The notes: generated by a model from the sequence alone, not told the origin. DNA of 40,846 nt from a bacterium (GCA_040757115.1 JBFLYA010000006.1:1-40846), one strand, 5' to 3'. Positions 18,623-35,800 are shown, counted from the first letter of the stretch. Translations and numbers: made by a program.

Positions 18623-19279
18623 ATGTCTACTCCATTTGAGAAGGAAATTTACGATTATGAATTAGAGGCGGATATTTCTTTTGAAAGATTGGAAAAGGTA
18701 AAGCCTACAGAAGATGAGGATACAATTTTAATTAGAAAAAGTATTGAAGGTGATAATTCTGCTTTTGAGAAATTAGTGGGTCGATATGAAGCAAGGGTTT
18801 ATCACCTGATTTACAATATCTTAGAGAATAAAGAAGATGCAGAAGATTTATTACAAGAAACTTTCCTCAAGGTTTATCGATTTCTTTATCAGTTTAGAGG
18901 GGAAGCAAAATTTATTACCTATCTATATCGGATAGCAACAAATCTTTGCTTTCAAAAATTAAAGAAAAAAAAGACTTCCTATTCTCTCGATAACCTTTTA
19001 GAGGCTAATCTTAATGATGAGATGGTTGAATTAGTAAGTATGAAGTTGGGTAATCCTGAAGAAATACTTTTAAAAAAGGAACTTGGCTTAATAATAAATG
19101 AAGCTATTCAAAAATTACCTGAAAAATTCAGAGTAGTCTTTTTCCTCCGAGAAATAGAAAATTTTTCTAATAAACAAGTAAGTGAAATATTAGGTTATTC
19201 AATTGGAACTATAAAATCACAAATACATAGGATAAGGCGATTCTTACATAAGAAAATACTTCCTTATCTCACAATTTAA
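18623..19279 (+). CDS. RNA polymerase ECF-type sigma-70 factor
   Basis: Region 2 (AEDLLQETFLKVYRFLYQFRGEA.F.TYLYRIATN) and region 4 HTH (Q.VSEILGYSIGTIKSQIHR.RR.L). A ~45-aa N-terminal extension is present. Confidence 0.88.
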   Translation: MSTPFEKEIYDYELEADISFERLEKVKPTEDEDTILIRKSIEGDNSAFEKLVGRYEARVYHLIYNILENKEDAEDLLQETFLKVYRFLYQFRGEAKFITYLYRIATNLCFQKLKKKKTSYSLDNLLEANLNDEMVELVSMKLGNPEEILLKKELGLIINEAIQKLPEKFRVVFFLREIENFSNKQVSEILGYSIGTIKSQIHRIRRFLHKKILPYLTI

Positions 19280-19496
19280 TTTTAACCGTTGGGGTAGATA
19301 CCTAAACGCTTACTTTATTTTTTTAACGAATGTTCTCCTTTCCTGAATAAGCATTCATTAGTTGGAAAGGTTAAAGATAACTATAAGCACGACAATGTAA
19401 GTTTTTCTGTAACAGAAAATAGCGATGTAAAGACAAACATAAGGGTTTTTTAATATCAGTCTGGAATACCAAATTATAAGGGAGAACATTAAAATA

Positions 19497-19727
19497 ATGG
19501 AGTGTAATAAGATAAAAGCTCTATTATCAGATTACATAGATTTAGAGCTAAAACCTGGTTTGCAGAGTAAAGTAGAAAAACATATCTTTAAGTGTCCAAA
19601 ATGTAAGTCTTATCTAATAACCTTACAGAGAACCATCCAAATATATAAGTCTGTCCTTAAACCCTCTATTCCACCTGATGTTTCTGAACGATTGCACAAA
19701 AGGCTTAAAGAAGAAATTGAGAAGTGA
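19497..19727 (+). CDS. zinc-finger (zf-HC2/ZAS-type) anti-sigma factor, short cytoplasmic form
   Basis: C-x26-H-x3-C-x2-C arrangement (C3...H30..C34..C37) with the LSDYIDLEL motif typical of anti-sigma N-domains. It lies 217 bp downstream of the ECF sigma gene. Confidence 0.68.
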   Translation: MECNKIKALLSDYIDLELKPGLQSKVEKHIFKCPKCKSYLITLQRTIQIYKSVLKPSIPPDVSERLHKRLKEEIEK

Positions 19728-20332: not shown

Positions 20333-20396
20333 AAAAAATTAAAAAATTTTTGCAACCTTTTTGACAATTTTGTAATCTATTTATTTAAAGGGAAGA

Positions 20397-20583
20397 AATT
20401 TCCACCTGTGCGGTTAAATGTAAAATGGATAATGTAAAATGAGAAATGTCCAATGAAAATGTATAACTGAAAGGTAATGAGTCTTGCGAAGTCCTAAAAT
20501 TTCCCAAATTTCATTTCCTATTTTACATTTATTTTTCCTTTGCGTCTCTGCGATGAATTAGTCTAATCGCACAGGTGGAAAAA
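20397..20583. mobile_element. MITE-like element family 2, copy A (TIRs ttccacctgtgcgRtta / taaYcgcacaggtggaa)
   Basis: ~187 bp, AT-rich core with 'tgtaaaatg' repeats. It is the reverse complement (a few mismatches) of 31461-31651. A solo terminus lies at 867-884. Confidence 0.7.
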
Positions 20584-20724
20584 TTTGTGTAATGTGTAAG
20601 AAGAGGAGATTTTTGGGAATTATGGAGAGATGGGGATAAGATAAAAATTACATCTTCCTATCTCCAATATCTCCATTTCCCCTTTTTTATACAATTTTTT
20701 AAATAAATTGGAGGTAAATAAATT

Positions 20725-23700
20725 ATGTGTAAAAAAATTATTTGGGGAATAATGTTGGGAATAGTGATGATTATTAATGCAAAGGTTGCTGTAGCAACAG
20801 ATGTCAGTGGTACTATCACTTCAAATACTACCTGGGATGTTGCTGGCAGTCCCTACATCATCACTGCTGATGTCATTGTCGATCAAGGAGTAACATTAGA
20901 GATTGAGCCGAATGTAGTAGTTAAATTTGCGACCGATACATCATTAATCAGCTATGGGACATTGACCGCTGTTGGAATACCGAATGGGACGATTACCTTT
21001 ACTTCTAATAAACCTACACCTGCTGCTGGAGATTGGACGAGTATTAAACTCAGTGGTACAGGAAGTAGTAGGAGCCAGATCAGTTATTGTCTGACACAGT
21101 ATGCCAAGCAGGCAGTATATTTGGAGAACACGGATAATGTAACGATAACATATAATACAATTAGAGATAATAAAGGTAATGATGGAATTGATAATCAAGC
21201 AACTACTGGGGAGATAGGTGCTGGTATCTATTTAGTGTCGTCAACTAATAATAACATTGAGAATAATACTATTTTTAATAACATTGGTGGACAAGGAGGA
21301 GATGGTGGATATGGTGGTGGAGTTGGTGGTGCTGCTGCAGGAGGACCAGGGGTTGGAATCTATCTTTCTTCATCAAGTAAGAATACTATCTCTCAAAATA
21401 CCATCTTTGATAACATTGGTGGACAAGGGGGAAGAGGAGCGCTTTTTGGAGGAGGAGGTTCAGGTGGTTCTGGAGCTGGAATTTACCTCTCTTCCGCATC
21501 AGTAGAGAATACCATCTCTCAAAACACCATTTTTAACAATGCTGGTGGGCAAGGAGGACAGAGTGGTGATTCTGCTCCAGGTGGTGCAGGCGATCCAGGG
21601 GTAGGATATGGCATCTATATTGATGATTCAAGCTGTTACAACAATACTATTGCTACAACCAATACTTATAATGGTGAGCCAATTCATTTCTACTATAGTC
21701 AAACAGGAATTATTATTGAAGATCAGATTTTAACTGGATCACCTACAACAAACTTAGGAAAGATTAACTTGATTAACTGTTCAGACTTTACTATCAGAGG
21801 AAATACTATTTCAGGAGCAAGAGGATATAGTGGTGAGAGTGGAGATCCTGAAGGTGAACAAGGAGGTAATGGAGTAGGGATATACCTATATCGCTCAGGA
21901 AGTGGTGTTGTTACAAGCAATAGTATTTCCGATAATATTGGTGGTCGTGGTGGTACCGGTCGGAAAGGTTGGTATGCAGCGAGTACAGGAGGTTCAGGTG
22001 GCATGGGATGTGGAATATACCTTTTGTCCTCTACAGATGTTGAGATTAGTGATAATATCATTTCTAACAATCAAGGTGGAAGAGGTGGTGGTTCTGCTGG
22101 TTGGGGTTCGGGTGGTAAAGGTGGACTTGGAGTAGGAATATCTCTCGGATCATCTACTTTAAACAGTATTAGTAATAACACTATTTCTAATAGCCAAGGT
22201 GGACTTTATGGAGGTGGATGGCCGTGTGGAAGAAATGGATTAGGTTGTGGTATCTATATAGACTCAAACAGTTATAATAATATTATAGATACAACTAATA
22301 CCTCTGATGGTCAACCAATCCATTATTATTACAACCGGACAGGGATTATTATTGAAAATCAGACATTAACAGGAACACCTACTACAAACTTAGGAAAGAT
22401 TGTTTTAATTAACTGTTCAAATTTTATTATCAGAAATAATACCATCTCTGGAGCTAGAGGAGATAATGGTAAAACTGGTTGGGCTAATCAAGTAGGTCAT
22501 CCTGGTGAAATTGGTGCTGGAATTTACATTTTATCATCAACAGGTAATACTATAATTGATAACACTATCTCTGATAATCAGGGGGGATTAGGTGGAGGAG
22601 GTGGTGGTGATGCTTCAGGTGGACCTGGTGGTATAGGAACGGGAATATACCTTGGTTCATCTACAAATAATACTATAAGTGGCAACACAATTTCTAATAA
22701 CAGTGGCGGAGAAGGTGGTCATGCTACTTATGGCAATAATTCTTCGGTAGGTGGCTGTGGTGGTGATGGTGCTGGAATTTATCTTTTATCATCAACTGAT
22801 AATACTATTCTCTCTAATAATATATTAGAGAATAGTGGAGGTAGAGGAGGTGGTGTTTATCAACAAGGTAATACTGGTGGTGTCGGTGCTGGTATATACT
22901 TAAACTCATCAGATAATAACAATATTAGTAGAAATAGTATCACAGACAATAATGGTGGTACAGGTGGCACTGGTAATTGTAGCCGAAATAAAGCTGGTGG
23001 TGCTGGTGGTATTGGTGCTGGTATATACTTAAACTCATCAGATAATAACAATATCAGGGAGAATAATGCCATTACAGATAATAGTGGTGGTACAGGTGGC
23101 AGTGGTTGTCCCATTGGTTCAAATGGTAATGGAGTTGGTATCTACGGTGCCTCTTCAGAAGTTGCCAATCTTATCTACAATAACATCTACAACAATACAA
23201 CCTATAACCTCTCAACTGACATCTCTCCGGGCACACAAACAGCAGAATATAACTGGTGGGGAACTTCAGTTGAGTCTGAAATTGTAGCTAAACTATCTGG
23301 TAAGATTGATTATATTCCCTGGTTGATGGGGACATGGACAGAATCAGCACAGATTACAATCTCACCTACTTCTGGTACTGTGGGTACCATCGTCACTGTA
23401 GAAGGTGAAGGATTTGGAAGTACAGAAACTGTACAGATAGATTTTGGAACGACTAAGACGATTACTACTGCCGCAACTAATGGCTTAGGAACTTTCTCAG
23501 TTACTTTCACTATTGATAACCAGCCAGCAGGTACAACTACAGTTACAGCTACTGGTCTTACATCTTCCTATTCTGCTACTGCCACATTTACAATAATTTC
23601 CATTACACAACCAGAGATTACTTTAATATCACCAACCTCTGGTACCGTGGGTACCATCGTTACTGTAGAAGGTAACGGGTTTGGTTCAACAGAGGCTATT

Positions 23701-26700
23701 CGGATAGACTTTGGGACAACTAAAACAATTAAAATAAGCACTACCAATGGAAGTGGACAATTTACTACTACTTTTACAGTCGATTACCAACCAGGCGGAA
23801 CTACTACTCTAACCGCAACAGGGCTTACTTCCAATTTAGTCGCTACGGCTACCTTTGTGACCATCACCCAGCCAACTACCGTTATTGAGCAAGAAGACTT
23901 CTGGAGATATACATATTCACCTAACTCTGGCTGGGAAACATTAGGATATGATGACAGTAGTTGGAGTAAAGGCAGAGCTCCTTTCGGAAATCAGTCTGAT
24001 GGTGATTGGATTCCTCATACAGATTGGCCTGCAGGGACGACACTATACCTTAGAAAGTATATTGATTTACCTGCATCTGCTAAATTGACTATCTATACTG
24101 GCGTAGATAACGAAATCCATATCTATATAAATGGTGTTAATATTTTTAATGCCTCTGCTCATGGATTTACATATCGCTGGGAATATACATTTGACATTCC
24201 TAAAGGATATATAAACCCAGGAAGAAATGTAATTGCTGTGCAAGCAGTGGATTGGGGTGGCGCGACAGGATTTGATCTGAAGGCTATTGCTGAGGTCAAT
24301 ATACCTCCAATGGGTTCTATGGCAATTAGTTCTGTGCCTTCGGAGGCAAAAATTTACTCAGATGGAATGGATACAGGTAAACTCACTCCTGCTGTCTTGA
24401 CCAATCTATCCACAGGTAGTCATCAAATTGTCTTAACTAAGCCTTTGTATAACAATTGGGCTGAAACTGTTACTGTATCCTCAGGACAGACTACAGAAAT
24501 AGATGTTCCTCTTAGACTTTCTCCAACAATTATCCTTACCCCTATTTCTGGTACTGTTGGAATTATAATCACAGTTACAGGTGAAAACTTTAGTCCAAAT
24601 GAGGCAATTAGGATTGATTTTGGTCTGATTTCTTCAATTACCATCGCCAGTACTACTGCCTACGGCACCTTTGCCACTACTTTTACGGTATCTTCTCAAC
24701 CAGCAGGAACCACTACTATTGTGGCTACTGGTCTTACCTCCGGGTCAAAAGCCTATGCTACCTTCACGCTTACTATTCCGGCGCAAGCAACACTGACTGT
24801 CCGATTAGACCAGATTGATGCCGCTAAATTCCCAACTATCGAATGCCATGTCCGTGTAACTCAAGGAACTACATCTATTGCAGGACTGACTGCGGATAAT
24901 TTCCAATTAACCGAGCAGTCTGAATTAGAATCTATAGCGACCGTAGAGATAATCAGTGTCAGTGCAACTAATTCCGCCGGAGTAGCCATCGCCCATGTAT
25001 TAGATAGAAGTGGTAGTATGCAAGGTCAGAAGATAACAGATGCTAAAACTGCCGCTAATTCCCTTGTTGATATGATGCAACCTCTGGATAGGATGGCGAT
25101 AGTCTCCTTTGCTTCAAATGTTACTGTTGACCAATCCTTTACCAGTAATCAATCTGCCTTACATACCGCTATTAACAACTTAGTTGCCGATGGAGCCACG
25201 GCTTTGTATGATGGCATATATACGGGAATAGGTCAATGCACACAAGAAATTGGTGTTAAAGCAGTTATTGCTTTAACCGATGGTCAAGAAAATAGTAGTT
25301 CACATACTCAGCAACAGGTAATTGATTATGCTATTGCCAGTGCTGTGCCTGTTTATACCATTGGTTTAGGCAGTGATGTGAATACTGACATACTTACGCA
25401 AATTGCCACAACTACTGGTGGAACATATCATTTTGCACCAAACTCTACTCAGCTACAAGAGATATTTGCAGATATTAGAGAAGAGATAGAACAGCAGTAT
25501 TTAGTTACTTATAATACTCATAACCCGAATTATGATGGCACACTGCGGAATGTAGTCATTACTGCGAGTTATAACTCTGCCATTGGCTCAGATTCTGGGA
25601 CATATCGTGTAGATGAACCACCGAAAATTATCCGCACCCCAGAAACTATTGCCTTAGGTTCACAAAGTCAACCTGCCAACCAACCATTGACTATCGCCGC
25701 AACCATTACTGATAATACCGCAGTTACTAATGCCACCTTATTCTATCGACATTCGGGAACACTAACCAGCTATTCTCAGCTGACTATGACTCATATGGGT
25801 AATAACCTGTATAAAACAACTATCCCAGCCGCAAGTGTTAATTACCCGGGCGTGGATTACTATATCACTGCCTCAGATGGTAGATTAGTCGCTTCAGACC
25901 CAAAAAACAATCCTGAAATCTACCCATATCAGATTGCGGTATATCCTAATGAAAAACCAGTGATTATACATACCCCTGTTTCTGGAGCGTTAATTAACTC
26001 ATCAGTAACTATTACTGCCTATGCTACGGATACCACAGATTATGTTACTTCGGTAACCTTATCCTATCGTATCAAGGGTTATGTGCTTTATGAGAATGTA
26101 GTTATGACTAAGGCAGGTAATACTTATACCGCTACCATACCGGCGAATAAGATGACCTTTGTCGGGGTCGAATACTATATTGTCGCGATGGACAATTATG
26201 GTTTGCGGGCATATCACGGCACAGATGTTAATCCACACTACATTCGTCCCAATGTTCCACCGAGTATAACCATTACCGCACCACCAGCACAAGGGGCTTA
26301 TGCTACCAGTTCTTATACCATCGCCTGGGTAGATGCTGACCCGGATAATGATGCCCAAATATCACTCTACTATGATACCAATAACACTAACTATGACGGC
26401 TCAACTATCACTACTGGACTTTCTGAGGATAGCAGTATCAATAGCTATATCTGGAATCTCTCAACTATCCCCGAAGGTAGTTACTATATCTATGCCTTGA
26501 TAGATGATGGCACTAATACACCCGTCTATGACTACAGCAATGGACCATTAAATATTGATCATTCACTACCACGAGCAACCATTACTACCACCCCTGCCTC
26601 ACCAATTACTGCTGCTGGGACAGTCTATGTTATCTTAACTGCCTCAGAAAAATTATCTGCCGTCTCACTGACATTTACTCCCTATGGTAAATCACCTCTC

Positions 26701-29700
26701 TCTATACCGTTGACTACCACGGATTATATCACCTGGCAAGGTAATTTCCAGGTTACTCTTTATACTGGCGATGGAATAGGCACATTTAACTATTCCTTGA
26801 AAGATTTATTCAATAATATTGTTACCGGAAGCCAAACTTTTGAGATAGATGTTTCAGGGGTAATATTTACGCAGTCAAATTATACCTTCAATGTTGAGAA
26901 GGACTATAATCAGCAGGGATTGGTTAGGGTTAAGAATATCGATAATGAGCCACACCAATTCTTCGCAGAATCTATTAATGTCCCTAAACCAATAGCGGTA
27001 AATTTTATGGGTGATGGTTCTGTGGATAATCCGATTACCTTACAGCCCGGGGAAGAGACAAATCTTATTCTATCAATGCATACCCAATATGCCACGAAAA
27101 CAAATTACTCCCTCGGCGGTAACTTGACCAATGATAAAGGGTTAATCTCGCATACGACAATAAATATTAATGTTCGCCTGCCCGAGGTTAGATTTACGGT
27201 TAGTCTTATCAGTGAAGACCCAATGACATTAGCCAAAACCTATAGAATTACCAATACGGGTGCTGACCCAATTCCGGATTTAACCATTGACCTCGGTGCA
27301 CTTAAAGATAAGGTGATTATGCATCCGTTACTCTATTCGCTATACTTAGGCACATCGAGTTCAGTTGAATTTAAGCTCATCCCCATTATCACTGAGACTT
27401 TTAGTGGGCTATCTGGCACCTGGAGTGTGAGTAGTGGAGATAAGGTGGTGGAGGTTCTTACTACCTGGCAGGTTACAGGAACCATCTATAAGGTAACATT
27501 AAATCAGCCCAAACTCGTCTTTGATATTAATTATCTATATCAATATGAATTAGAACAACATAAAGTAATAGTGGGATATTGTCCTAATGGAGCACCAATC
27601 TGGGGATGGGTAGCAGACCCGAGGTTAATTAAGAGCATTGACCCATTCTATATACCAACAGGATTTGGAACTTCAAATGTCAAAAGTGCAAACTTGAGTA
27701 TGCATTTTACAGAAGGAAATATTGAGCAAAATCGCAATACCTATATCTATATGAATAATAATGAAGTGGGTAGATTAATAAATGTTAATCCGGAAGGGTA
27801 TTATACATTTCCAGTTGCGCCAGACTATTTTATGTATCCCGACCCGTATGTTGGTAATCGCCGCAATGAGATTAGTATGGAGACAGATATAAATCCTGCT
27901 CATTTAGCCTGGGTAGGTAATTTCAGGGTTACCATACTCTTAGATAAGTTTGAGGTGTATGTTATTGCTACAAGTTCAGCGGCGGCTACCGCTACTGCCT
28001 GGGCATTACCCTATGTGCATCATAATTCAGACCAACTATTTGTCAATATTACTCAACCACCAGAGGGATTTGAGTATAAGATAGGTGCGAAGGTGCAGAT
28101 TAAGGCTGAGGTAAAGGATGAGCATGACATCTTCCAGTGGCTCTGCAATGTCTGTGTAAGTTTTACCAATAGCACCCAAACACTGAATTTATACGATGAT
28201 GGCATGCATAATGATGCCGGTGTAAATGACGGTATTTATGCCAACTACTGGTATCCTGCCAATGAAGGTAGTGTTACTATCACCGTGGTGGCGAATAACT
28301 GTAAGACACAGGCGACTGCGACAGTTAGTGGCAATATTATTGGCAATCGACCGCCGAGCATAGACATTCTTACCCCTACTGAATTACAAACATTACAAGG
28401 AACTACCACTATCTCGTATCAAGCCACAGACCCAGATGGCGATAGTTTATATTTCTATATCTATTATAGTGCCTCCTCGATTGGTCCCTGGAATCTGTTC
28501 TACAGTGGCGTAAATACTGTCTATCTCTGGAATACTAATATCCTGGAAAATGGTATTTACTATATTCGGGTAGTAGCCAGTGACCCTAACGGATTGACAG
28601 GCTCAGATACCGTCAAGGTAACTGTAAAGAATAAAAAACCAAAGATTAGAGTTAATCCTACTGCTGGCTCTCAATGTGCCTTAGTTACGGTTTATGGTGA
28701 AGACTTTGGTGCGACAGAGACGGTTCAGATTGACTTTGGGTTACATCTTAATATTACTACTGGCATGACTAATGCCGAAGGCTCATTTACTACCTTTTTT
28801 ACTGTCGATACGCAACCGGTTGGCACAGTCTCAGTAGTCGCTACCGGTATTGATTCACACCTGAGGGCCTCTGCAGATTTCACTATTACTGCACTACACT
28901 ATATCAAAGGATATATTCGCTATGCGAATGGTGAAGGAATTCCAGGCATCAAAGTCTATTTAATGAGCCCAATAGTAGATGACTGTTTTATCACTTCATC
29001 TGATGGTTATTATGAATTTACCGGTTTGCCCACCGGATATTATCGTGTAAGACCATATAAAGAATGGTATACATTTGAGCCAGCAGGAAGGGAATACCGC
29101 ATACTTACTGCCAGTTGCGATAATCAGAACTACATCGGGACACCACAGAGGTATTATATTAAAGGTAGATGTAACACAGAGGCAGATGAAGGGATAGGTG
29201 GAGTGCAGGTAGTTTTATCAGGTTCTGTGCAGGCAACCTATACTACTAATGCCAGTGGATATTATGCCTTCTGGGATGTTCCGGCGGGCACATATACCAT
29301 CACCCCTTATAGGCAATTCTATACCTTTGTTCCGGCAAATAGAATCCTTCCTAACATAGATTTCCATCAAGCAGGACAGGATTTTGTTGGCACATCTACT
29401 ACTGTAGAAAGATATTATATCAAAGGAACTATCACGGATATGAGTCATAATCCGTTAGCCGGGGTAAGGGTATATCTGTTTGGCACGATGGATAATGTTT
29501 TTATCACCAGAGCAGATGGTTATTATGAATTTACCAATCTTGAGTCAGGTTATTATCGAACCAGCCTGTGGAAACAAGGATATACCTTCGAACCATCTGG
29601 CAGAAGATATGAATACCTGTGTAGCCATTATGAGCATCAAGACTTTGACGATGATGGTCCACCACAAGGAATTCAACCACCACCACCTACCAGTACACTC

Positions 29701-30372
29701 ACATCGCTATTCTTTGTAGTAAAGGATAATGCAGGAAAAGGAATACCAGGGGCAAAGATTACACTGATGCCATTAAATGTAGAAAATGTAGTGAGGGTCT
29801 TCAGACCCGTTGGGGAAAACGCAGAAAATGTAGTGAGGGTCTTCAGACCCGTTGGGGAAAACGCATCTAAAGATGCTCACTACAGACCCGTCTCGGCTGA
29901 GATTATCACTGATGAAAATGGTATGGCAGATATGGTCAAGCCTATCTGGGAATTGTCTGGTAACTACACCATAAAGGTGGTAAAGTTAGGGTATAACTGT
30001 GAAAGTGAGGAGATTACTATTACGGATGAGGAATCGGTTTTTGACCTTGACTTTGTCTTAGAAGCATCACAGCCGTTACCACCCCAGAATAAACTTTACC
30101 AGAATTACCCAAATCCATTCAATCCCAATCAGGAAGAAACACAGATTCCGTATGATTTAGCCGTGAATGCTCATATAGTCATTAAGATTTACAACATTGC
30201 TGGAGAATTAGTCAGGACATTAGAGGAAGATAAACTTGCCGGGTCAAATATTACTACCCCATGGAATGGTAGAAATGATGATGGTGATATTGTCTCCAAC
30301 GGCGTCTATTTCTATCAATTACATATTGGTGGAAGTGTAGTTGGGACTAAGAAGATATTAGTAATAAAATAG
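20725..30372 (+). CDS. giant secreted surface protein (3215 aa): Gly-rich parallel β-helix repeats, IPT/TIG x4, GH2-N-like sugar-binding jelly roll, PEGA, vWFA, CarboxypepD_reg-like x3, T9SS-type C-terminal sorting domain
   Basis: Signal peptide, then ~15 PbH1-like coils, each N.I..N.I.DN.GG.GG...G.GIYL.SS. IPT/TIG units follow (ISPTSGTVGTIVTVEG.GFG.TE...IDFG). YDDSSW...IYTGVDNEIHIYINGVNI...DIPKGYINPGRNVIAV matches the GH2 N-terminal sugar-binding fold. A PEGA domain (SSVPSEAKIYSDG...TPAVLTNLSTGSHQIVLTKP) is present. The vWFA MIDAS motif DRSGSM...ALYDGI...LTDGQEN is present. YIKGY.R...G.G..GV.VYL..... repeats occur three times. The C-terminus NYPNPFNP.T.I.Y.L...A.V.IKIYNIAGELVRTL......G.....WNG.N..G..V.SGVYFY matches Por_Secre_tail/FlgD-Ig-like. 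Confidence 0.88.
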   Translation: MCKKIIWGIMLGIVMIINAKVAVATDVSGTITSNTTWDVAGSPYIITADVIVDQGVTLEIEPNVVVKFATDTSLISYGTLTAVGIPNGTITFTSNKPTPAAGDWTSIKLSGTGSSRSQISYCLTQYAKQAVYLENTDNVTITYNTIRDNKGNDGIDNQATTGEIGAGIYLVSSTNNNIENNTIFNNIGGQGGDGGYGGGVGGAAAGGPGVGIYLSSSSKNTISQNTIFDNIGGQGGRGALFGGGGSGGSGAGIYLSSASVENTISQNTIFNNAGGQGGQSGDSAPGGAGDPGVGYGIYIDDSSCYNNTIATTNTYNGEPIHFYYSQTGIIIEDQILTGSPTTNLGKINLINCSDFTIRGNTISGARGYSGESGDPEGEQGGNGVGIYLYRSGSGVVTSNSISDNIGGRGGTGRKGWYAASTGGSGGMGCGIYLLSSTDVEISDNIISNNQGGRGGGSAGWGSGGKGGLGVGISLGSSTLNSISNNTISNSQGGLYGGGWPCGRNGLGCGIYIDSNSYNNIIDTTNTSDGQPIHYYYNRTGIIIENQTLTGTPTTNLGKIVLINCSNFIIRNNTISGARGDNGKTGWANQVGHPGEIGAGIYILSSTGNTIIDNTISDNQGGLGGGGGGDASGGPGGIGTGIYLGSSTNNTISGNTISNNSGGEGGHATYGNNSSVGGCGGDGAGIYLLSSTDNTILSNNILENSGGRGGGVYQQGNTGGVGAGIYLNSSDNNNISRNSITDNNGGTGGTGNCSRNKAGGAGGIGAGIYLNSSDNNNIRENNAITDNSGGTGGSGCPIGSNGNGVGIYGASSEVANLIYNNIYNNTTYNLSTDISPGTQTAEYNWWGTSVESEIVAKLSGKIDYIPWLMGTWTESAQITISPTSGTVGTIVTVEGEGFGSTETVQIDFGTTKTITTAATNGLGTFSVTFTIDNQPAGTTTVTATGLTSSYSATATFTIISITQPEITLISPTSGTVGTIVTVEGNGFGSTEAIRIDFGTTKTIKISTTNGSGQFTTTFTVDYQPGGTTTLTATGLTSNLVATATFVTITQPTTVIEQEDFWRYTYSPNSGWETLGYDDSSWSKGRAPFGNQSDGDWIPHTDWPAGTTLYLRKYIDLPASAKLTIYTGVDNEIHIYINGVNIFNASAHGFTYRWEYTFDIPKGYINPGRNVIAVQAVDWGGATGFDLKAIAEVNIPPMGSMAISSVPSEAKIYSDGMDTGKLTPAVLTNLSTGSHQIVLTKPLYNNWAETVTVSSGQTTEIDVPLRLSPTIILTPISGTVGIIITVTGENFSPNEAIRIDFGLISSITIASTTAYGTFATTFTVSSQPAGTTTIVATGLTSGSKAYATFTLTIPAQATLTVRLDQIDAAKFPTIECHVRVTQGTTSIAGLTADNFQLTEQSELESIATVEIISVSATNSAGVAIAHVLDRSGSMQGQKITDAKTAANSLVDMMQPLDRMAIVSFASNVTVDQSFTSNQSALHTAINNLVADGATALYDGIYTGIGQCTQEIGVKAVIALTDGQENSSSHTQQQVIDYAIASAVPVYTIGLGSDVNTDILTQIATTTGGTYHFAPNSTQLQEIFADIREEIEQQYLVTYNTHNPNYDGTLRNVVITASYNSAIGSDSGTYRVDEPPKIIRTPETIALGSQSQPANQPLTIAATITDNTAVTNATLFYRHSGTLTSYSQLTMTHMGNNLYKTTIPAASVNYPGVDYYITASDGRLVASDPKNNPEIYPYQIAVYPNEKPVIIHTPVSGALINSSVTITAYATDTTDYVTSVTLSYRIKGYVLYENVVMTKAGNTYTATIPANKMTFVGVEYYIVAMDNYGLRAYHGTDVNPHYIRPNVPPSITITAPPAQGAYATSSYTIAWVDADPDNDAQISLYYDTNNTNYDGSTITTGLSEDSSINSYIWNLSTIPEGSYYIYALIDDGTNTPVYDYSNGPLNIDHSLPRATITTTPASPITAAGTVYVILTASEKLSAVSLTFTPYGKSPLSIPLTTTDYITWQGNFQVTLYTGDGIGTFNYSLKDLFNNIVTGSQTFEIDVSGVIFTQSNYTFNVEKDYNQQGLVRVKNIDNEPHQFFAESINVPKPIAVNFMGDGSVDNPITLQPGEETNLILSMHTQYATKTNYSLGGNLTNDKGLISHTTININVRLPEVRFTVSLISEDPMTLAKTYRITNTGADPIPDLTIDLGALKDKVIMHPLLYSLYLGTSSSVEFKLIPIITETFSGLSGTWSVSSGDKVVEVLTTWQVTGTIYKVTLNQPKLVFDINYLYQYELEQHKVIVGYCPNGAPIWGWVADPRLIKSIDPFYIPTGFGTSNVKSANLSMHFTEGNIEQNRNTYIYMNNNEVGRLINVNPEGYYTFPVAPDYFMYPDPYVGNRRNEISMETDINPAHLAWVGNFRVTILLDKFEVYVIATSSAAATATAWALPYVHHNSDQLFVNITQPPEGFEYKIGAKVQIKAEVKDEHDIFQWLCNVCVSFTNSTQTLNLYDDGMHNDAGVNDGIYANYWYPANEGSVTITVVANNCKTQATATVSGNIIGNRPPSIDILTPTELQTLQGTTTISYQATDPDGDSLYFYIYYSASSIGPWNLFYSGVNTVYLWNTNILENGIYYIRVVASDPNGLTGSDTVKVTVKNKKPKIRVNPTAGSQCALVTVYGEDFGATETVQIDFGLHLNITTGMTNAEGSFTTFFTVDTQPVGTVSVVATGIDSHLRASADFTITALHYIKGYIRYANGEGIPGIKVYLMSPIVDDCFITSSDGYYEFTGLPTGYYRVRPYKEWYTFEPAGREYRILTASCDNQNYIGTPQRYYIKGRCNTEADEGIGGVQVVLSGSVQATYTTNASGYYAFWDVPAGTYTITPYRQFYTFVPANRILPNIDFHQAGQDFVGTSTTVERYYIKGTITDMSHNPLAGVRVYLFGTMDNVFITRADGYYEFTNLESGYYRTSLWKQGYTFEPSGRRYEYLCSHYEHQDFDDDGPPQGIQPPPPTSTLTSLFFVVKDNAGKGIPGAKITLMPLNVENVVRVFRPVGENAENVVRVFRPVGENASKDAHYRPVSAEIITDENGMADMVKPIWELSGNYTIKVVKLGYNCESEEITITDEESVFDLDFVLEASQPLPPQNKLYQNYPNPFNPNQEETQIPYDLAVNAHIVIKIYNIAGELVRTLEEDKLAGSNITTPWNGRNDDGDIVSNGVYFYQLHIGGSVVGTKKILVIK
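29781..29897. mobile_element. MITE-like palindromic element family 3 inserted in-frame in the giant CDS, with tandem 42-bp duplication
   Basis: gaaaatgtagtgagggtcttcagacccgttggggaaaacgca x2 then tctaaagatgctcactacagaccc. Nested hairpins tgtagtgag/ctcactaca and gggtct-tc-agaccc. The same element lies intergenic at 40607-40704. Translated as ENVVRVFRPVGENA x2 ...KDAHYRPV. Confidence 0.7.
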
Positions 30373-30468: not shown

Positions 30469-31413
30469 ATGTTAAACAAAAAGGTACAACAGGTAAGTAT
30501 AACTCTATTTCTTTCTTTACTCTCTACTCTCTACTTTCTACTTCCTAATGCCGAGGCAGGGGCGGATACCGGCGCTGATTTCTTAAAGCTGGGCGTAGGA
30601 GCAAGGGCATCTGCAATGGGTGAGGCATTTTGTGCCGTAGCAGATAGTGTTGACTCTATTTATTACAATCCGGCAGGATTAGCCCGGCTGAAACAAAAAG
30701 AGGTCTCTGCAATGTATGGCGATAAACGAGAGGATACTGCCCGCACATCATTAGTTTATGCCCAGCCACTACAAGAATGGGAAGCTGGTGGCGTATTAGG
30801 AATAGGTATCATCTATCAAGACTTAGGTGAGATAGAACTGCGTGATAAATCTAATCAACCACAAGGTTCTATCAATCCCGCTGAGTTTGCCGTGATTTTC
30901 TCCTATGCGAAAAAGTCTTATGAAAATCTATTATTAGGTGGGAATGTAAAATACATCCAACGCGAGCTTAAGAAAATAAAGGCTAAAGCCGTTGCCTTTG
31001 ACCTTGGTCTCCTATATTTCCCGCAAATCCCAAAATTCCTAAACCTCTCAGGAACAGGTTTAACTACAGGTCTGTGTCTGGAGAATATAGGTAGTAAGAT
31101 AAAGGGTGATGAGTTGCCGTTAAACTTACGGCTTGGTGTAGCGTATTCGCCTTTAAATAATCTCTGCTGTAGTTTAGATGTGAACCAACACCTTTATAAT
31201 TCCGACTTATGTTGGAATCTTGGGCTTGAATATAGATATAGTTTGTTGGCTGTCCGACTGGGCTATTTTGACAAAGGAAGACAGATAAAGGGATTGAGTT
31301 ATGGGTTTGGAATAAAGTATCTGGGTTATCAGCTTGACTTTGCTAATCTTGCCAGTGGTGAGATGGAAAATGCAGAAGATATGAACCGCATATCCCTCTC
31401 AGTGAGTTGGTAG
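30469..31413 (+). CDS. PorV/PorQ-family-like outer-membrane β-barrel protein (T9SS-associated shuttle family); alternative: UPF0164/FadL-like
   Basis: Signal peptide. N-terminal motif GADFLKLGVGARASAMGEAF.AVADSVDSIYYNPAGLA resembles the conserved PorV/PorQ N-terminal block (G..FL.IG.GAR..AMGGAF.AVADD.SA.YWNPAGL). Alternating β-strand pattern with an aromatic C-terminus (SLSVSW). Strong SD aaggagg. Confidence 0.55.
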   Translation: MLNKKVQQVSITLFLSLLSTLYFLLPNAEAGADTGADFLKLGVGARASAMGEAFCAVADSVDSIYYNPAGLARLKQKEVSAMYGDKREDTARTSLVYAQPLQEWEAGGVLGIGIIYQDLGEIELRDKSNQPQGSINPAEFAVIFSYAKKSYENLLLGGNVKYIQRELKKIKAKAVAFDLGLLYFPQIPKFLNLSGTGLTTGLCLENIGSKIKGDELPLNLRLGVAYSPLNNLCCSLDVNQHLYNSDLCWNLGLEYRYSLLAVRLGYFDKGRQIKGLSYGFGIKYLGYQLDFANLASGEMENAEDMNRISLSVSW

Positions 31414-32834: not shown

Positions 32835-35800
32835 ATGCTAAAGAAATTTATCTTAATGTTATTTATATTATTTCCAACTATTAGTAATGCAGGTAATTGG
32901 GTAGCGTTTAAAGAAGGTATTACTTCGCCTACAAAGCCTGAGATTATAGTTGTAAAAGAGGATGCTTCAGGTATTACCTTAGATGCAAGTATCTTGGGGA
33001 TGAAGGTAGAAGCACGGAGCACGGAGCACGGAGCACGAAGTGTAGGGACAGAGATATTTCAGTTGCTTAGTATTCCAGGGCATGAATATAGCTATACCCA
33101 GGAAGTAGGCAAACCCAAACTGCCATTCCTTCAAATTCTCCTTGCCATCCCGGATGATGTAGAAATTAATCTTTCCTCTATTTCTACTTCCCACTTCCCA
33201 CTTCCTACTTCCTACTTAATCTATCCCGTGCCAAAGCAAGTAATCAAGACCACCCCTGAAGGCTACAAATACATCGCTGAGGAGTTCTACATAGATGAAG
33301 ATTTCTACAAGCAAGACATCTGGTATCCGCAAGAGGATAAAGTTATCACTTATCATACCAGTTATCTTCGTGACCAGCGGATACTTTATCTACAAATCCA
33401 TCCTATTCAGTTTAACCCGGCAAAAAATCAGCTTCAGGCTTATTCTAATCTGAAGATAGAGATAAAATACATGGCTAAAAAGGGCAGAAGTATTTCGTTA
33501 AAGCAGTCAAAGATGGCAGAGCCTTTTGCTAATGTCTTGCAGAAATCTGTATTGAATTACCTAGGCTACGGGTCTAAAGACCCTCACTACTTTCGTGCAC
33601 CTAAAAGAATAGGCACGGTTACTTACCCCAGTATCCTTAAAAGCCCCAATAACTCAGCAGATTATTTGATTATCACTTCTTCATCTTATTACCATAATTC
33701 TGATGTAGCCAGACTGGCTGAACATCGTGCTGAGTTCAACGGCTTTGATGTGGCTGTGGTTAATACTACCTCTATCTACAATGAATTCCCTATTACCGAT
33801 AAAGGCACAACTACATCTATTAAGGACTTCATCAGATATGTCTATTATAATTGGTCTGCCCCATCTATGGAGGATAATCATCTGGGATATATCCTTATAT
33901 TTGGGGATGGGGAGGAGACCCGGGATTCTTATGTTCCATCTAAAGAGATTCGAGAGATATATCCAACTATAAGAAATCCGGTATCTGACCCGTGGTATGC
34001 TTGTATTAATGATGAAGATTTGGATTGGAGCTACTGGACAGTGGATATAATGATTGGACGATTGCCTGTAGAGACTGGGACAGATGCAAAGACAATGGTA
34101 GATAAAACAATCGGCTATGAAAAGACCCCTGAGTTAGGTCAATGGCGTAACAAGATTTTATTAGTTACAGGCGAAGATGGTCTTGAACTCACAGTAATAA
34201 AGGATAATTACCTTTTACCTGCCGGGTTTGAAGTCGCTGAAACTACCCGCGGTGATGAGGTGTTTAATGCCATAGATAGTGGTCAATTATTGGTCTCCTA
34301 TTCTGGACATGGTGTCCCATTCGGATGGGCAACGAATCCTGCTTTTTCTGCTGAGCACGATGTCTCAAAACTCTCTAATAGAGGCAAACTACCTGTAGTT
34401 TTAGCCGCTGCTTGTGATACCGCTTGTTTTCAATATGATTATGATTATGTTATAGGAGAAACATTCCTCACAAAAGAAAATGGAGGGGCTATTGCCTATT
34501 GGGGGGCATCTGATCCTACTGGGGCAAATACTGATATATTCATTATAAAGGCATACCAGTTCATAGCCGACTACACCCCAAATACCTTCTATCTTGGACA
34601 AATAACCCTTAATACCTATTTTCAGTCATTACCACAAGAATGGAACCTATTAGGAGACCCTGCACTAACTATCTCACGGGTAGGTCTTGAACCAGGTAAG
34701 GCAGAGTTAGAGGTTGAACCAGTTGATATCAGGTTTAATCCCCAATCCCCTAAACCTGGCCAGCAGACAAATATCTCTGCAATTATCCATAATCTCGGGG
34801 ATATAGATGCAAAAGATGTATTAGTCCAATTCTTCCTTGGCAAACCTGGTGAGGGTGGGATGGAAATAGGCTCTAAAACAATCCCTGCCATCAAGAGTAA
34901 TGACCAGGAAACAGCAGTCATAGATTGGAAACAAAATCTACCTATCGGAGAATATCCAATCTATGTAATAATCAATCCTTATAATACCATTTTAGAAGCA
35001 GGGACAATCAATAATACCACCTGTAAATCTATAGAGATAAATTTCTATCAAGAAGGCTATCCTAAAATCCCTGAGGGAGGATTTACCATAGAAAACTCTC
35101 CTGTCATAGGAGATGTAGATGGGGATGAGGATTTAGAAGTGATGGCTTGTGCAGGAGGATATGTGTATATCTGGCATCATAATGGTTCGCCACTAAATAA
35201 TTGGTATAAGATAATCCCTGACCTTGCAACACCTTCTCCTCCTCTTTTAGCCGAGGTGGATAATGATGATGGATTAGAGGTGATAAAGAATGGTGGTGGA
35301 GGATTCTACATCTTAAGGTCTGATGGTAGTAATCTCGCTGGTTTCCCAATCTCAGGGTCAAATACAAGCAGTCCTGCCCTTGGAGATATAGATGGAGATG
35401 GGGATTTAGAGATTGCTATAGGGATGAACAATAAATTCTATCTCTTCCATCATACCGGAGAATTAGTAAAAGGAGATTGGCCTATAGATATAGCCGTAAA
35501 CCAGAACTATCACCCAATGATAGCAGATATAGATAGAGATGGTCATCTTGAAATTATTGTCCTTGCTGATAAGATATATGTCTTTAATAGCGAAGGTAAG
35601 TTAATTCCTGGGCAATGGCCTAAGAGTATCTCAGGGTATATATTTACTAATGGATTGGCTATAGGTAATATTGATAATGATGATGAATTAGAGATTCTCA
35701 TTGTGACACAAGAGGAACCAAAGATATTTTTGCACGCCTTGAATTATGATGGAACTAATGTGACAGGTTATCCGAAACAGGTAGGAGGAATGGATTATGA

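What the first reader, a model, noticed from the sequence alone, without database searches (positions are those of the whole stretch)
20725..30372. Giant adhesin combining a Gly-loop β-helix, GH2-type sugar-binding fold, PEGA, vWFA and T9SS-type CTD
The first ~830 aa are ~15 β-helix coils in which every coil carries a glycine-rich loop (GGQGGDGGYGGGVGG, GGRGGTGRKGW, GGEGGHATYGNN...). The nucleotide sequence is correspondingly repetitive. The 135-aa segment at nt 23898-24300 has the hallmark motifs of the glycoside-hydrolase family 2 N-terminal sugar-binding domain (DDSSW...PH.DW...LYLRK...VDNEIHIYINGVNI...INPGRNVIAV), but no catalytic TIM barrel follows. This combination in one 3215-aa polypeptide is unusual and suggests a carbohydrate-targeting adhesin.
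Basis: partly seen in the sequence, partly recalled or inferred. Interest (0 to 1): 0.6.

Follow-up and report, generated by a model that had tools for sequence, protein, structure and literature searches.

The report
Giant mosaic T9SS-sorted surface adhesin
This is a real 3,215-residue secreted surface protein from an uncultivated bacterium, assembled from shuffled modules that are each common (beta-helix stalk, lectin-like jelly roll, PEGA, VWA, type IX sorting tail); it is an ordinary member of a widespread class, and its one under-described feature is a conserved glycine-rich insert on 13 coils of the beta-helix.

Summary
ORF 20725-30372 encodes 3,215 aa with a signal peptide and a NosD/PbH1 beta-helix. 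Thirteen of its coils carry a 17-24-aa Gly-rich insert. Downstream lie four Ig-like repeats, a 136-aa jelly roll, PEGA, a VWA domain with an intact MIDAS site, three CarboxypepD_reg domains and a T9SS type-A sorting domain (35.7 bits, cutoff 23).

A PorV-family gene and a PorU-like C25 peptidase lie directly downstream. The most likely reading is a T9SS-exported, surface-anchored adhesin with lectin-like and MIDAS binding heads. Carbohydrate targeting is plausible but unproven.

The combination is not special. There is no full-length homolog, but every module pair recurs elsewhere, in shuffled order.

The Gly insert is the most interesting part. It is conserved in about 20 other giant bacterial and archaeal proteins, has a GGx triplet period and a position-specific consensus, and has no solved counterpart. 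It could form polyglycine-II-like ridges; this is untested.

The parts
20725..20796 (+). Signal peptide, aa 1-24 (MCKKIIWGIMLGIVMIINAKVAVA, with an AVA|TD cleavage-like site)
   Evidence: Read directly from the translation. No signal-peptide predictor was run.
20797..23304 (+). Right-handed PbH1/NosD-type beta-helix, aa 25-860. It has an N-terminal cap (aa 25-140), 13 coils each followed by a 17-24-aa Gly-rich insert (consensus GGxGGxGGxxGSGGxGGxGA), and two loop-free duplicated modules (aa 296-382 and 509-598).
   Evidence: Pfam Beta_helix 96.9 bits and NosD 96.7 bits. TIGR03804 85.2 bits. Unit dissection. AF2 pLDDT 80.9, pTM 0.84. Foldseek returns generic beta-helices only. By sequence, the only PDB relative is NosD at E 5e-4.
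23353..23874 (+). Two tandem Ig/IPT-like repeats of about 88 aa each, aa 877-1050 (PTSGTVGTIVTVEG..FG..IDFG motif)
   Evidence: Internal repeat at the protein level and at the DNA level, 207 nt at 71% identity. Pfam hits are only weak Ig-like ones.
23887..24294 (+). Galactose-binding-like jelly roll, aa 1055-1190, with a GH2-N-terminal-type fold. It belongs to a large family lacking a Pfam/NCBIfam model that reaches threshold. Conserved acidic or polar residues are D1128, N1129, D1176 and D1184.
24313..24516 (+). PEGA domain, aa 1197-1264
   Evidence: Pfam PEGA 54.5 bits, cutoff 20.8. The lectin-like domain sits next to PEGA in 7 of 150 family members.
24532..24774 (+). Third Ig/IPT-like repeat, aa 1270-1350
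24838..25569 (+). Beta-sandwich plus VWA domain, aa 1372-1615, with a complete MIDAS site (D1427-x-S-x-S, T1492, D1519)
   Evidence: TIGR03436 97.6 bits, cutoff 81.25. Pfam VWA 71.5 bits. Motif positions.
25642..26541 (+). Ig-like domains, aa 1640-1939: two repeats of about 90 aa, then a Kre9_KNH-like Ig domain. Aa 1342-1851 form a cassette that is 56% identical to part of the L004 giant protein.
   Evidence: Big_7 and Kre9_KNH hits. BLAST against L004. PDB sequence matches are only weak Ig-like ones.
26824..28653 (+). Central block of unassigned function, aa 2034-2643. It includes a choice-of-anchor X motif (aa 2487-2523) and a Big_7/Big_9 Ig domain (aa ~2542-2633). Aa 2034-2249 are 37-38% identical to blocks in P0037 and P0048, and aa 2037-2643 are 28% identical to L004.
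   Evidence: NF041940 29.6 bits, cutoff 25. Pfam on segments. BLAST. No PDB sequence relative.
28657..28899 (+). Fourth Ig/IPT-like repeat, aa 2645-2725
28903..29583 (+). Three CarboxypepD_reg (transthyretin-like) domains, aa 2727-2953
   Evidence: Pfam CarboxypepD_reg 76-82 bits, three stretches.
29722..30069 (+). A further beta-sandwich region, aa ~3000-3115, containing an in-frame 42-bp tandem duplication (nt 29775-29858; ENVVRVFRPVGENA x2)
   Evidence: TRF reports 100% matches. The repeat finder reports 95-100% identity. Weak PEGA-like hit.
30106..30369 (+). T9SS type-A C-terminal sorting domain, aa 3128-3215 (QNYPNPFNP...IKIYN..GELV...W.G.D..G..V.NGVYFYQL...TKKILVIK)
   Evidence: TIGR04183 35.7 bits, cutoff 23. 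FlgD_ig 28.8 bits, cutoff 27. Alignment with the CTDs of the neighbouring C25 protein and of homologs.
30469..31413 (+). PorV/PorQ-family outer-membrane protein gene, 96 nt downstream, with its own RBS and signal peptide
   Evidence: NF033709 184.3 bits, cutoff 90. Pfam PorV. No terminator-like site in the gap. Sequence.
32835..40604 (+). 2589-aa C25 (gingipain/PorU-type) cysteine peptidase with propeptide, CARDB, FG-GAP and fn3 domains and a T9SS type-A CTD. It is a candidate sortase or a second cargo.
   Evidence: Peptidase_C25 226 bits. NF033707 PorU 196.7 bits, below the 420 equivalog cutoff. TIGR04183 42.8-47.8 bits.
18623..19726 (+). ECF sigma factor (18623-19279) and zf-HC2 anti-sigma factor (19497-19726), about 1 kb upstream. 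This is a possible regulator pair; no link to the giant gene is shown.
   Evidence: Sigma70_r2/r4_2 hits. zf-HC2 34.3 bits.

Best explanation
The gene encodes a giant, modular cell-surface protein. It most likely works in four steps.

1. It is exported by Sec through an N-terminal signal peptide.
2. It crosses the outer membrane by a type IX-like pathway that recognises its C-terminal type-A sorting domain.
3. The PorV-family shuttle and the PorU-like C25 peptidase encoded immediately downstream handle it. In Porphyromonas, the equivalent step removes the CTD and links the cargo covalently to a surface glycolipid.
4. On the surface, the ~835-residue beta-helix, the Ig-like repeats and the CarboxypepD_reg domains act as a rigid stalk and spacers. 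The binding heads are a GH2-N/CBM67-like jelly roll (probably a glycan binder, possibly metal-dependent) and a VWA domain with a complete MIDAS site (metal-dependent protein or ligand binding).

The net function would be adhesion or aggregation to cells, matrix or particles.

Shown here: the ORF, the domain identities, the fold of two regions, the intact MIDAS motif, CTD membership, the neighbouring PorV-family and C25 genes, and the mosaic evolution. Inferred: the export route, surface anchoring, ligand classes and the adhesion role.
For: - **Domain map:**
- **CTD:** TIGR04183 35.7 bits vs cutoff 23. It aligns with the CTDs of the neighbouring C25 protein and of homologs.
- **Neighbours:** the PorV-family gene scores 184 bits vs cutoff 90 and lies 96 nt downstream with no terminator-like site between. 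C25 peptidase with PorU similarity and its own CTD.
- **Recurrent linkage:** the locus of the closest homolog P0001 also has a PorV gene and a PEGA protein nearby.
- **VWA:** complete MIDAS DxSxS...T...D.
- **Jelly roll:** AF2 pLDDT 95.3; GH2 N-terminal domains are the best structural matches. The family profile matches the calcium-dependent CBM67 rhamnosidase entry at 1e-14 and the Pleurotus ostreatus lectin entry 6kbj at about 3e-9 (for its identity; literature). The domain occurs free-standing and in tandem arrays of up to 8 copies, as binding modules do.
- **No catalytic signature:** the beta-helix gives only generic Beta_helix/NosD hits and no CAZyme catalytic family in Pfam.
- **Same design elsewhere:** beta-helix + lectin-like domain + the mid block recurs in other giants with a different anchor.
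- **Mechanism of PorV and PorU:** PMC5562754 and PMC8545088.
Against: - No experiment and no ligand information exist.
- Only one contig is available, so the T9SS core (SprA/Sov, PorK/L/M/N) is unverified. The organism's phylum is unresolved: the nearest named IlvD relatives are a Nitrospirota MAG at 83% and Omnitrophota MAGs at about 74%.
- The C25 neighbour scores far below the PorU equivalog cutoff (196.7 vs 420) and may simply be a second cargo.
- The jelly roll fails the Glyco_hydro_2_N cutoff, and GH2 N-terminal domains are not proven autonomous lectins.
- Structural neighbours of the beta-helix include many polysaccharide lyases, hydrolases and epimerases, so an enzymatic role is not excluded.
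- About 600 residues (aa 2034-2643) have no assigned function.
Confidence: 0.6

Rival explanations
1. It is a surface-anchored carbohydrate-active enzyme. The beta-helix would be a polysaccharide lyase, hydrolase or epimerase, the jelly roll would act as its CBM, and the rest would be spacers and the anchor.
For: The best structural matches of the beta-helix model are PL6 alginate lyases, phage tailspike depolymerases, GH87, and the AlgE4/AlgG epimerases. A CBM-like domain follows the helix.
Against: TM-scores are low (0.1-0.2), and the matches reflect only the generic fold. No catalytic CAZyme family is detected in Pfam; only Beta_helix, NosD and TIGR03804 hit. The helix is unusually regular, with 13 near-identical coil units and no obvious irregular active-site groove. 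By sequence, the only PDB relative is NosD at E 5e-4.
Confidence: 0.15
2. It is a structural envelope or matrix protein, such as an S-layer-like or sheath component or a biofilm scaffold, whose domains mediate self-assembly rather than binding to foreign targets.
For: PEGA, CarboxypepD_reg and Ig-like domains and NosD-like beta-helices are typical of envelope and S-layer-type proteins. Archaeal relatives of the beta-helix and of the mid block exist, one of them with a C-terminal TM anchor. NosD-like proteins lacking the copper motif have been proposed to act in cell-cell adhesion or aggregation in sediment communities (PMC13452462).
Against: A single-copy 3215-aa mosaic with no conserved full-length orthologs is unlike an abundant, conserved lattice protein. 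The MIDAS VWA and lectin-like heads point to heterologous ligand binding.
Confidence: 0.15
3. It is an assembly chimera or a decaying gene. The long repetitive ORF in a MAG contig would be partly an artefact, and the domain combination would not exist in the cell.
For: The window is a MAG contig. The ORF contains internal repeats and a perfect 42-bp duplication. The exact protein is not on record as a called gene product, although the contig's IlvD is.
Against: The ORF is uninterrupted for 9,648 nt, with a signal peptide at one end and a sorting domain at the other. The internal DNA repeats are only 60-78% identical, too diverged to mislead an assembler. Composition is uniform across the gene and its flanks. 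Domain boundaries are clean, and both AF2 models are confident.
Confidence: 0.04

Closest known systems
T9SS type-A CTD cargo proteins of Bacteroidota (for example, Porphyromonas gingivalis gingipains and other CTD proteins handled by PorV and PorU)
   Same: N-terminal signal peptide plus a C-terminal ~90-aa Ig-like sorting domain that passes TIGR04183. A PorV-family gene and a C25/PorU-like peptidase gene lie alongside.
   Different: The host is an unclassified, uncultivated bacterium. The C25 neighbour is 2,589 aa and scores below the PorU equivalog cutoff. The rest of the secretion machinery is unseen. The cargo is far larger and more mosaic than the characterised examples.
NosD / CASH / PbH1 right-handed parallel beta-helix proteins (NosD 7o0y/7osf, AlgE4, AlgG, PL6 lyases, phage tailspikes)
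   Same: Three-stranded coils with the GIxL..N.I..N.I Asn-ladder repeat. Pfam NosD, Pfam Beta_helix and TIGR03804 all score above cutoff. These are also the structural matches.
   Different: Thirteen coils each carry a conserved 17-24-aa GGx-periodic insert, which doubles the repeat length to about 42 aa. There is no His-Met-Met copper motif, since aa 100-860 contain one Met and four His. No nos genes are nearby. No solved structure shows such inserts.
Glycoside hydrolase family 2 N-terminal 'sugar-binding' domain (Pfam PF02837; for example 3gm8, 5t98, LacZ domain 1)
   Different: It scores below the Pfam cutoff (18.5 vs 28 bits). No GH2 Ig-like or TIM-barrel domains follow. It belongs to a separate family of at least 2,456 cluster representatives that occurs free-standing or in tandem arrays.
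CBM67 (Streptomyces avermitilis rhamnosidase SaRha78A, 3w5m/3w5n) and the CBM67-like Pleurotus ostreatus lectin POL (6kbj)
   Same: These are the best sequence-profile matches of the domain family (1e-14 and about 3e-9). The family's invariant D-N pair aligns with D179-N180 of 3w5m. CBM67 is described as a calcium-dependent, non-catalytic rhamnose-binding module (PMC4690510). POL binds Gal, GalNAc, GlcNAc and L-Rha (PMC11186620).
Giant RTX adhesins of Gram-negative bacteria (for example MpIBP and Lap-type adhesins with PA14 sugar-binding and vWFA ligand-binding modules)
   Same: The same design logic applies: a very long rigid extender plus a cluster of lectin-fold and VWA binding modules. PA14 sugar-binding domains of such adhesins appear among the structural and sequence neighbours (6m8m, 6x95).
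   Different: The secretion and anchoring systems differ (T1SS with a retention module versus a T9SS-type CTD). The extender is a beta-helix rather than tandem Big domains. There are no RTX nonapeptide repeats.
Glycine-rich polyproline-II/polyglycine-II helix bundle domains (Obg GTPase 1LNZ, snow-flea antifreeze 3BOG, phage S16 tail-fibre adhesin 6F45, ALK glycine-rich domain)
   Same: GGx triplet periodicity and GGxGGxGG runs of 6-9 residues. The ~4.7 A inter-helix spacing reported for such bundles (PMC12227593) matches the ~4.8 A rise per beta-helix coil (general knowledge).
   Different: There is no detectable sequence homology to any of these. The backbone geometry of the loops could not be inspected because model coordinates are not exposed. 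Here the Gly runs are inserts in a beta-helix, not a stand-alone domain.

Membership tests
Pfam Glyco_hydro_2_N (GH2 N-terminal sugar-binding domain) | Score at or above the curated gathering threshold (28 bits) | tested here: not met
   18.5 bits, E 0.0021 on the isolated segment, and no hit at E<=0.1 on the whole protein. Only 4 of 35 family members hit at E<0.01.
Pfam Glyco_hydro_2_N (GH2 N-terminal sugar-binding domain) | Jelly-roll fold superimposable on GH2 domain 1 | tested here: met
Glycoside hydrolase family 2 enzyme | N-terminal domain followed by the GH2 Ig-like domain and a TIM-barrel catalytic domain | tested here: not met
   No Glyco_hydro_2 or Glyco_hydro_2_C hits. PEGA follows directly.
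CBM67 / CBM67-like lectins | Sequence relationship to the CBM67 module of SaRha78A | tested here: inconclusive
CBM67 / CBM67-like lectins | Calcium-dependent sugar binding through conserved Asp/Asn ligands | not testable with these tools
   The invariant D1128-N1129 pair aligns with D179-N180 of 3w5m. That these residues are the ligands rests on my recollection; the primary paper is not held.
T9SS type-A CTD cargo | C-terminal sorting domain passing TIGR04183 | tested here: met
   35.7 bits vs cutoff 23 on the last 110 aa. Pfam Por_Secre_tail is sub-threshold (16.8 vs 27), but FlgD_ig scores 28.8 vs 27.
T9SS type-A CTD cargo | N-terminal Sec signal peptide | tested here: met
   By inspection only: a K-rich n-region, a hydrophobic core and an AVA|T site. 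No predictor was available.
T9SS type-A CTD cargo | T9SS attachment-complex genes (PorV, PorU) present in the genome | tested here: inconclusive
   The PorV/PorQ family model is met (184.3 vs 90), but the PorV equivalog is not (106.9 vs 250). The PorU equivalog is not met (196.7 vs 420), although a C25 domain and a CTD are present.
T9SS type-A CTD cargo | T9SS core translocon and motor (SprA/Sov, PorK/L/M/N) present in the genome | not testable with these tools
   Only this 40.8-kb contig is available, and none of these genes is in the window.
NosD (N2O reductase maturation protein) | NosD Pfam domain | tested here: met
   96.7 bits vs cutoff 23.6, five stretches.
NosD (N2O reductase maturation protein) | Conserved His-Met-Met copper-binding motif and nosZ/F/Y/L gene context | tested here: not met
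   Aa 100-860 contain one Met and four His. No nos genes are in the window. The motif is as described in PMC13452462.
VWA domain with MIDAS | VWA fold model plus the DxSxS...T...D metal-ion-dependent adhesion site | tested here: met
   VWA 71.5 bits and TIGR03436 97.6 bits. D1427-R-S-G-S, T1492 and D1519 are present.
RTX beta-roll | Tandem GGxGxDxUx nonapeptides (Pfam HemolysinCabind) | tested here: not met
   No HemolysinCabind hit at E<=0.1. The loop consensus has T/N/S rather than D at position 6, and no hydrophobic residue at position 8.
Autotransporter adhesin | C-terminal beta-barrel translocator domain | tested here: not met
   The C-terminus is a T9SS CTD, and no autotransporter family is detected.
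Polyglycine-II / PPII helix bundle | Triplet (GGx/Gxx) glycine periodicity in runs of 6 or more residues | tested here: met
   P(G at i+3 | G at i) is 0.62 vs 0.48+-0.04 for shuffles in the query, and 0.57 vs 0.45+-0.014 in 102 homolog loops. The consensus is GGxGGxGGxxGSGGxGGxGA.
Polyglycine-II / PPII helix bundle | PPII backbone dihedrals and an inter-helix hydrogen-bond network | not testable with these tools
   Model coordinates are not exposed. DSSP output shows only non-regular structure with isolated bridges, and loop pLDDT is about 61-86.

The most novel reading that the evidence does not exclude
The 17-24-residue Gly inserts may not be floppy loops. They could be a conserved, ordered element in which each coil contributes a hairpin of two GGx-periodic polyglycine-II-like helices. 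The ~4.8 A rise per beta-helix coil matches the ~4.7 A packing distance of PGII helices. Successive hairpins could therefore stack into a two-layer PGII sheet running along one flank of the helix. A row of mid-loop aromatic residues would sit along it (9 of 13 loops have one).

This would be a previously undescribed hybrid of a PbH1 beta-helix and a PGII bundle. It is shared by about 20 or more giant surface proteins of uncultivated bacteria and archaea. It might provide a flat recognition face, like those of the snow-flea antifreeze protein or the phage S16 gp38 adhesin.
Probability: 0.25. Interest if true: 0.6.

Novelty: new member of a known kind. Interest (0 to 1): 0.3.

Why it matters
As a whole, the protein is one more mosaic giant surface protein and does not change any picture. 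Three by-products have modest value.

1. **T9SS-type sorting outside cultured Bacteroidota.** The window shows a cargo, PorV-family and C25-peptidase gene cluster with type-A sorting domains in an uncultivated bacterium of unresolved phylum. This adds to the evidence that T9SS-type sorting operates beyond cultured Bacteroidota.

2. **A large lectin-like family without a curated model.** The GH2-N-like jelly roll has at least 2,456 cluster representatives, and no Pfam or NCBIfam model reaches threshold on it. It sits between GH2 domain 1, CBM67 and PA14. It deserves a family model and a ligand screen.

3. **A conserved Gly-looped coil.** The Gly-looped PbH1 coil is a position-specific structural variant with no solved example. 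If its loops form polyglycine-II ridges, it would add a new context to a rare protein architecture. It would also give structural biologists a tractable, highly repetitive model.

Tried and rejected
**Searches that found nothing or could not be run**
- Exact-sequence look-ups of the giant protein and of PorV found no record. The contig is nevertheless in NCBI, as shown by its 100%-identical IlvD on a 40,846-bp contig. A look-up of that IlvD returned only a short Logan contig, so no assembly accession or taxonomy was obtained.
- The word-indexed homolog search of the GH2-like segment found nothing. The exhaustive HMMER search was needed instead.
- The genome scan with the central region found one partial relative only. 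The metagenome scan found none, and the viral scan found none.
- The afdb50 fold library was unavailable.
- PDB sequence searches of aa 1640-2000, 1990-2400 and 2390-2725 gave only weak Ig-like hits or nothing. The aa 2034-2643 block therefore remains functionally unassigned.
- Rfam gave no hit in the window. Promoter and terminator scans were not above the shuffle expectation.
- The primary CBM67 paper is not held.

**Readings considered and rejected**
- RTX beta-roll: no nonapeptide pattern and no HemolysinCabind hit.
- Collagen-like triple helix: the Gly runs are too short and are GGx rather than GXY.
- Autotransporter: no beta-barrel translocator domain.
- Genuine NosD: no His-Met-Met motif and no nos genes nearby.
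- GH2 enzyme: no catalytic domains.
- Phage origin: the window has chromosomal housekeeping genes and no viral relatives.
Full report
**1. Is it there?**

ORF 20725-30372 on the + strand is uninterrupted and encodes 3,215 aa. A GGAGG ribosome-binding site lies upstream. Base composition is uniform across the gene and its flanks. The window carries chromosomal housekeeping genes: ilvD, GTP-dependent PEPCK, aroK, surA and a purM-like gene. The window is itself a complete 40,846-bp contig of an NCBI MAG labelled only 'bacterium'. Its IlvD is 100% identical to a protein recorded on a contig of exactly that length. The nearest named relatives are a Nitrospirota MAG at 83% identity and Omnitrophota MAGs at about 74%, so the phylum is unresolved.

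**2. The beta-helix**

Pfam assigns aa ~114-830 to Beta_helix (96.9 bits) and NosD (96.7 bits), and NCBIfam assigns it to TIGR03804 (85.2 bits).

Cutting the sequence at the GIYL-type strand yields 13 units of 37-47 aa. Each unit is a canonical ~22-aa PbH1 coil (GIYLxSSxxNxIxxNxIxxN) followed by a 17-24-aa insert that is 49% Gly. Two loop-free duplicated modules lie at aa 296-382 and 509-598, and an N-terminal cap of ordinary coils precedes the array. Glycine makes up 24% of aa 150-830 against 7.8% elsewhere.

At the DNA level the units are diverged repeats with 60-78% identity at 117-135-nt spacing. One 218-nt module is duplicated at 78% identity.

An AF2 model built on 11 homologs is confident (pLDDT 80.9, pTM 0.84). 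It shows one three-stranded coil plus a non-regular excursion of about 20 residues per unit. Loop pLDDT is mostly 61-86, so the loops are predicted to be ordered rather than disordered.

Foldseek against the PDB returns only generic right-handed beta-helices, all with low TM-scores: PL6 alginate lyases, HK620 and CBA120 tailspikes, NosD, AlgE4/AlgG and GH87. By sequence profile, the only PDB relative is NosD at E 5e-4. The protein is not a true NosD. Aa 100-860 contain one Met and four His, so the His-Met-Met copper motif described in PMC13452462 cannot be present, and no nos genes are nearby.

**3. The Gly inserts are a conserved element, not noise**

About 20 other giant proteins of 1,776-3,848 aa share the same looped coil at 14-23% Gly. 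They include proteins from Altiarchaeota and Micrarchaeota MAGs, and they also share the conserved loop-free module (YNNxI..GxPIxYYY..NPTNxGKIxLINC).

Within the loops, glycine shows a period of three. P(G at i+3 | G at i) is 0.62 against 0.48+-0.04 in shuffles for the query. It is 0.57 against 0.45+-0.014 for 102 homolog loops, with weaker peaks at lags 6 and 9. The modal 20-residue loop has a position-specific consensus, GGxGGxGGxxGSGGxGGxGA. Nine of the 13 query loops have an aromatic residue mid-loop.

GGx triplets are the hallmark of the rare glycine-rich PPII/PGII helix bundles. Examples are Obg, the snow-flea antifreeze protein, the phage S16 adhesin and ALK, as listed in PMC12227593. 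The ~4.7 A helix spacing used in that paper equals the rise per beta-helix coil, which is general knowledge. I therefore keep a 'PGII ridge on a beta-helix' as the most novel reading not excluded. It could not be tested because the model coordinates are not exposed. RTX nonapeptide and collagen-like readings do not fit the consensus.

**4. The GH2-like segment**

Against Pfam the segment scores 18.5 bits on Glyco_hydro_2_N, below the cutoff of 28, and gives weak hits to BetaGal_ABD2.

A word-indexed search found nothing. The exhaustive HMMER search found 2,456 cluster representatives at E<=1e-3 and 425 at E<=1e-10. These range from ~190-aa single-domain proteins, through tandem arrays of up to 8 copies, to other giants. 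Of 35 aligned members, only 4-5 give even weak Pfam hits to Glyco_hydro_2_N or BetaGal_ABD2, and no NCBIfam model reaches its cutoff on the query's own domain. No Pfam or NCBIfam model therefore reaches threshold on this family.

The family profile matches several solved proteins:
- the CBM67-bearing rhamnosidase 3w5m at E 1e-14, with the invariant D-N pair aligned to D179-N180;
- lectins of about 355 aa at about 3e-9, among them entry 6kbj, which describes as the Pleurotus ostreatus lectin;
- sialate O-acetylesterase at 5e-7;
- GH2 enzymes at about 1e-6.

CBM67 is described as a calcium-dependent, non-catalytic rhamnose-binding module (PMC4690510). The Pleurotus lectin is classed as a CBM67-like lectin that binds Gal, GalNAc, GlcNAc and L-Rha (PMC11186620).

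The AF2 model of the domain is excellent (pLDDT 95.3). Structurally it is closest to GH2 N-terminal domains:
- Foldseek agrees.

Sugar binding is a reasonable inference, resting on the relatives, the free-standing and tandem occurrence, and the conserved acidic cluster D1128/N1129/D1176/D1184. It is not demonstrated.

**5. The rest of the protein**

- Four Ig/IPT-like repeats start at aa 881, 970, 1273 and 2645.
- PEGA covers aa 1197-1264, at 54.5 bits.
- A beta-sandwich plus VWA unit covers aa 1372-1615, passing TIGR03436 at 97.6 bits against a cutoff of 81.25. Its MIDAS site is complete: D1427-x-S-x-S, T1492, D1519.
- Several Ig-like domains and a choice-of-anchor X motif follow.
- A block of about 600 aa (aa 2034-2643) has no assignable function and no PDB relative.
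- Three CarboxypepD_reg domains cover aa 2727-2953.
- The C-terminal domain, scored alone, passes the T9SS type-A sorting model TIGR04183 at 35.7 bits against a cutoff of 23. It aligns with the QNYPNPFNP...TKK..L.K consensus of the homologs and of the neighbouring C25 protein.

**6. Genomic context**

A PorV/PorQ-family gene begins 96 nt downstream (184.3 bits, cutoff 90). It has its own RBS and signal peptide, and no terminator-like site lies in the gap. An uncharacterised 211-aa secreted protein follows.

Next comes a 2,589-aa C25 peptidase. It resembles PorU at 196.7 bits, below the 420-bit equivalog cutoff, and has its own type-A CTD. In Porphyromonas, PorV shuttles CTD cargo, and PorU removes the CTD and attaches anionic LPS (PMC5562754 and PMC8545088).

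The locus of the closest homolog, P0001, also carries a PorV gene and a PEGA protein. Upstream of the giant gene lie an ECF sigma factor and a zf-HC2 anti-sigma factor. In P. gingivalis an ECF sigma factor regulates T9SS genes (PMC7712824). That is context only here; no link is shown.

**7. Is the combination unusual?**

No full-length homolog exists. The best hit covers 32% of the query at 42% identity. No close ortholog of the central architecture was found in reference genomes or metagenomes.

The pieces, however, recur:
- The L004 giant protein shares aa 1342-1851 (56% identity), aa 2037-2643 (28%) and the CTD (41%), in a different order.
- Among the 150 best carriers of the lectin-like domain, the domain co-occurs with PEGA in 7, with the Ig-like repeat in 10, with the CTD in 4 and with a beta-helix in 2.
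- P0037 and P0048 have a beta-helix, then two lectin-like domains, then the aa 2034-2249 block. Their helices are not Gly-rich, and P0048 ends in a TM anchor.

This is the signature of cassette shuffling among giant surface proteins, not of a singular design.

**8. Verdict**

- **Best explanation (confidence 0.6):** a Sec- and T9SS-exported, surface-anchored adhesin. A beta-helix, Ig-like and transthyretin-like stalk presents a lectin-like jelly roll and a MIDAS VWA domain.
- **Rivals:** a surface CAZyme whose beta-helix is catalytic (0.15), a self-assembling envelope or matrix protein (0.15), and an assembly artefact (0.04).
- **Novelty:** a new member of a known kind.
- **Interest:** 0.3, carried mainly by the conserved GGx-looped PbH1 coil and the large lectin-like family without a curated model.

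Noticed in passing
window 29775-29858: There is an in-frame, essentially perfect 42-bp tandem duplication inside the giant ORF (ENVVRVFRPVGENA x2). It is either a very recent duplication or an assembly effect.
   Followed up: partly
window 19730-20720: About 1 kb of non-coding DNA lies upstream of the giant gene. It holds four different heptamer tandem arrays: GTAGAGA-type near 19813-19860, TCCCGAG at 20068-20092, TCTGCCC at 20231-20297 and AAATGTA at 20416-20463. Several GC-rich hairpins are also present. There is no Rfam match. TCCCGAG heptamers also cluster at 39438-39545.
   Followed up: partly
window 18623-19279 and 19497-19726: An ECF sigma factor is followed by a 76-aa zf-HC2 anti-sigma factor that has no transmembrane or periplasmic part. 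The small ORF falls below the 80-aa ORF listing threshold.
   Followed up: yes
window 32429-32834: The intergenic region before the C25 gene holds a terminator-like hairpin (32494-32513). Three tandem repeats of about 49 nt follow, each containing the palindrome GTTCCGTAGGAAC (about 32581-32700). This could be an operator array.
   Followed up: no
window 32835-40604: The 2,589-aa C25 peptidase carries FG-GAP, CARDB and fn3 domains and a type-A CTD. It also gives weak sub-threshold hits to a homing-endonuclease domain (aa 1790-1817) and to the pertussis-like toxin subunit ArtA (aa 1782-1829).
   Followed up: no
window 31793-32428: A 211-aa ORF with a signal peptide lies between the PorV-family gene and the C25 gene. 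It has no Pfam or NCBIfam match.
   Followed up: partly
window 26824-27471 (aa 2034-2249 of the giant protein): This is a domain block with no family assignment. It is 37-38% identical to blocks in two other giants (P0037, 3310 aa; P0048, 5819 aa). Those proteins also pair a beta-helix with two copies of the lectin-like domain. The three modules may be functionally coupled.
   Followed up: partly
PDB 7o0y (NosD) residues ~246-349 versus the A1 profile: Canonical NosD has a single Gly-rich inter-coil stretch (GDTGGDSMISGGEG). It aligns with the family's Gly insert, hinting that the multi-loop variant may have arisen by propagation of one NosD-type loop.
   Followed up: no
window 120-557, 5207-6382 and 14116-15669: Three unrelated genes were seen. 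The first is a CfrBI-type restriction endonuclease fragment with an OLD-like TOPRIM hit. The second is a Schlafen AlbA_2/HATPase_c_4 protein. The third is a 517-aa protein with a WxL-interacting peptidoglycan-binding domain, lying next to a secretin gene (15846-17714).
   Followed up: no
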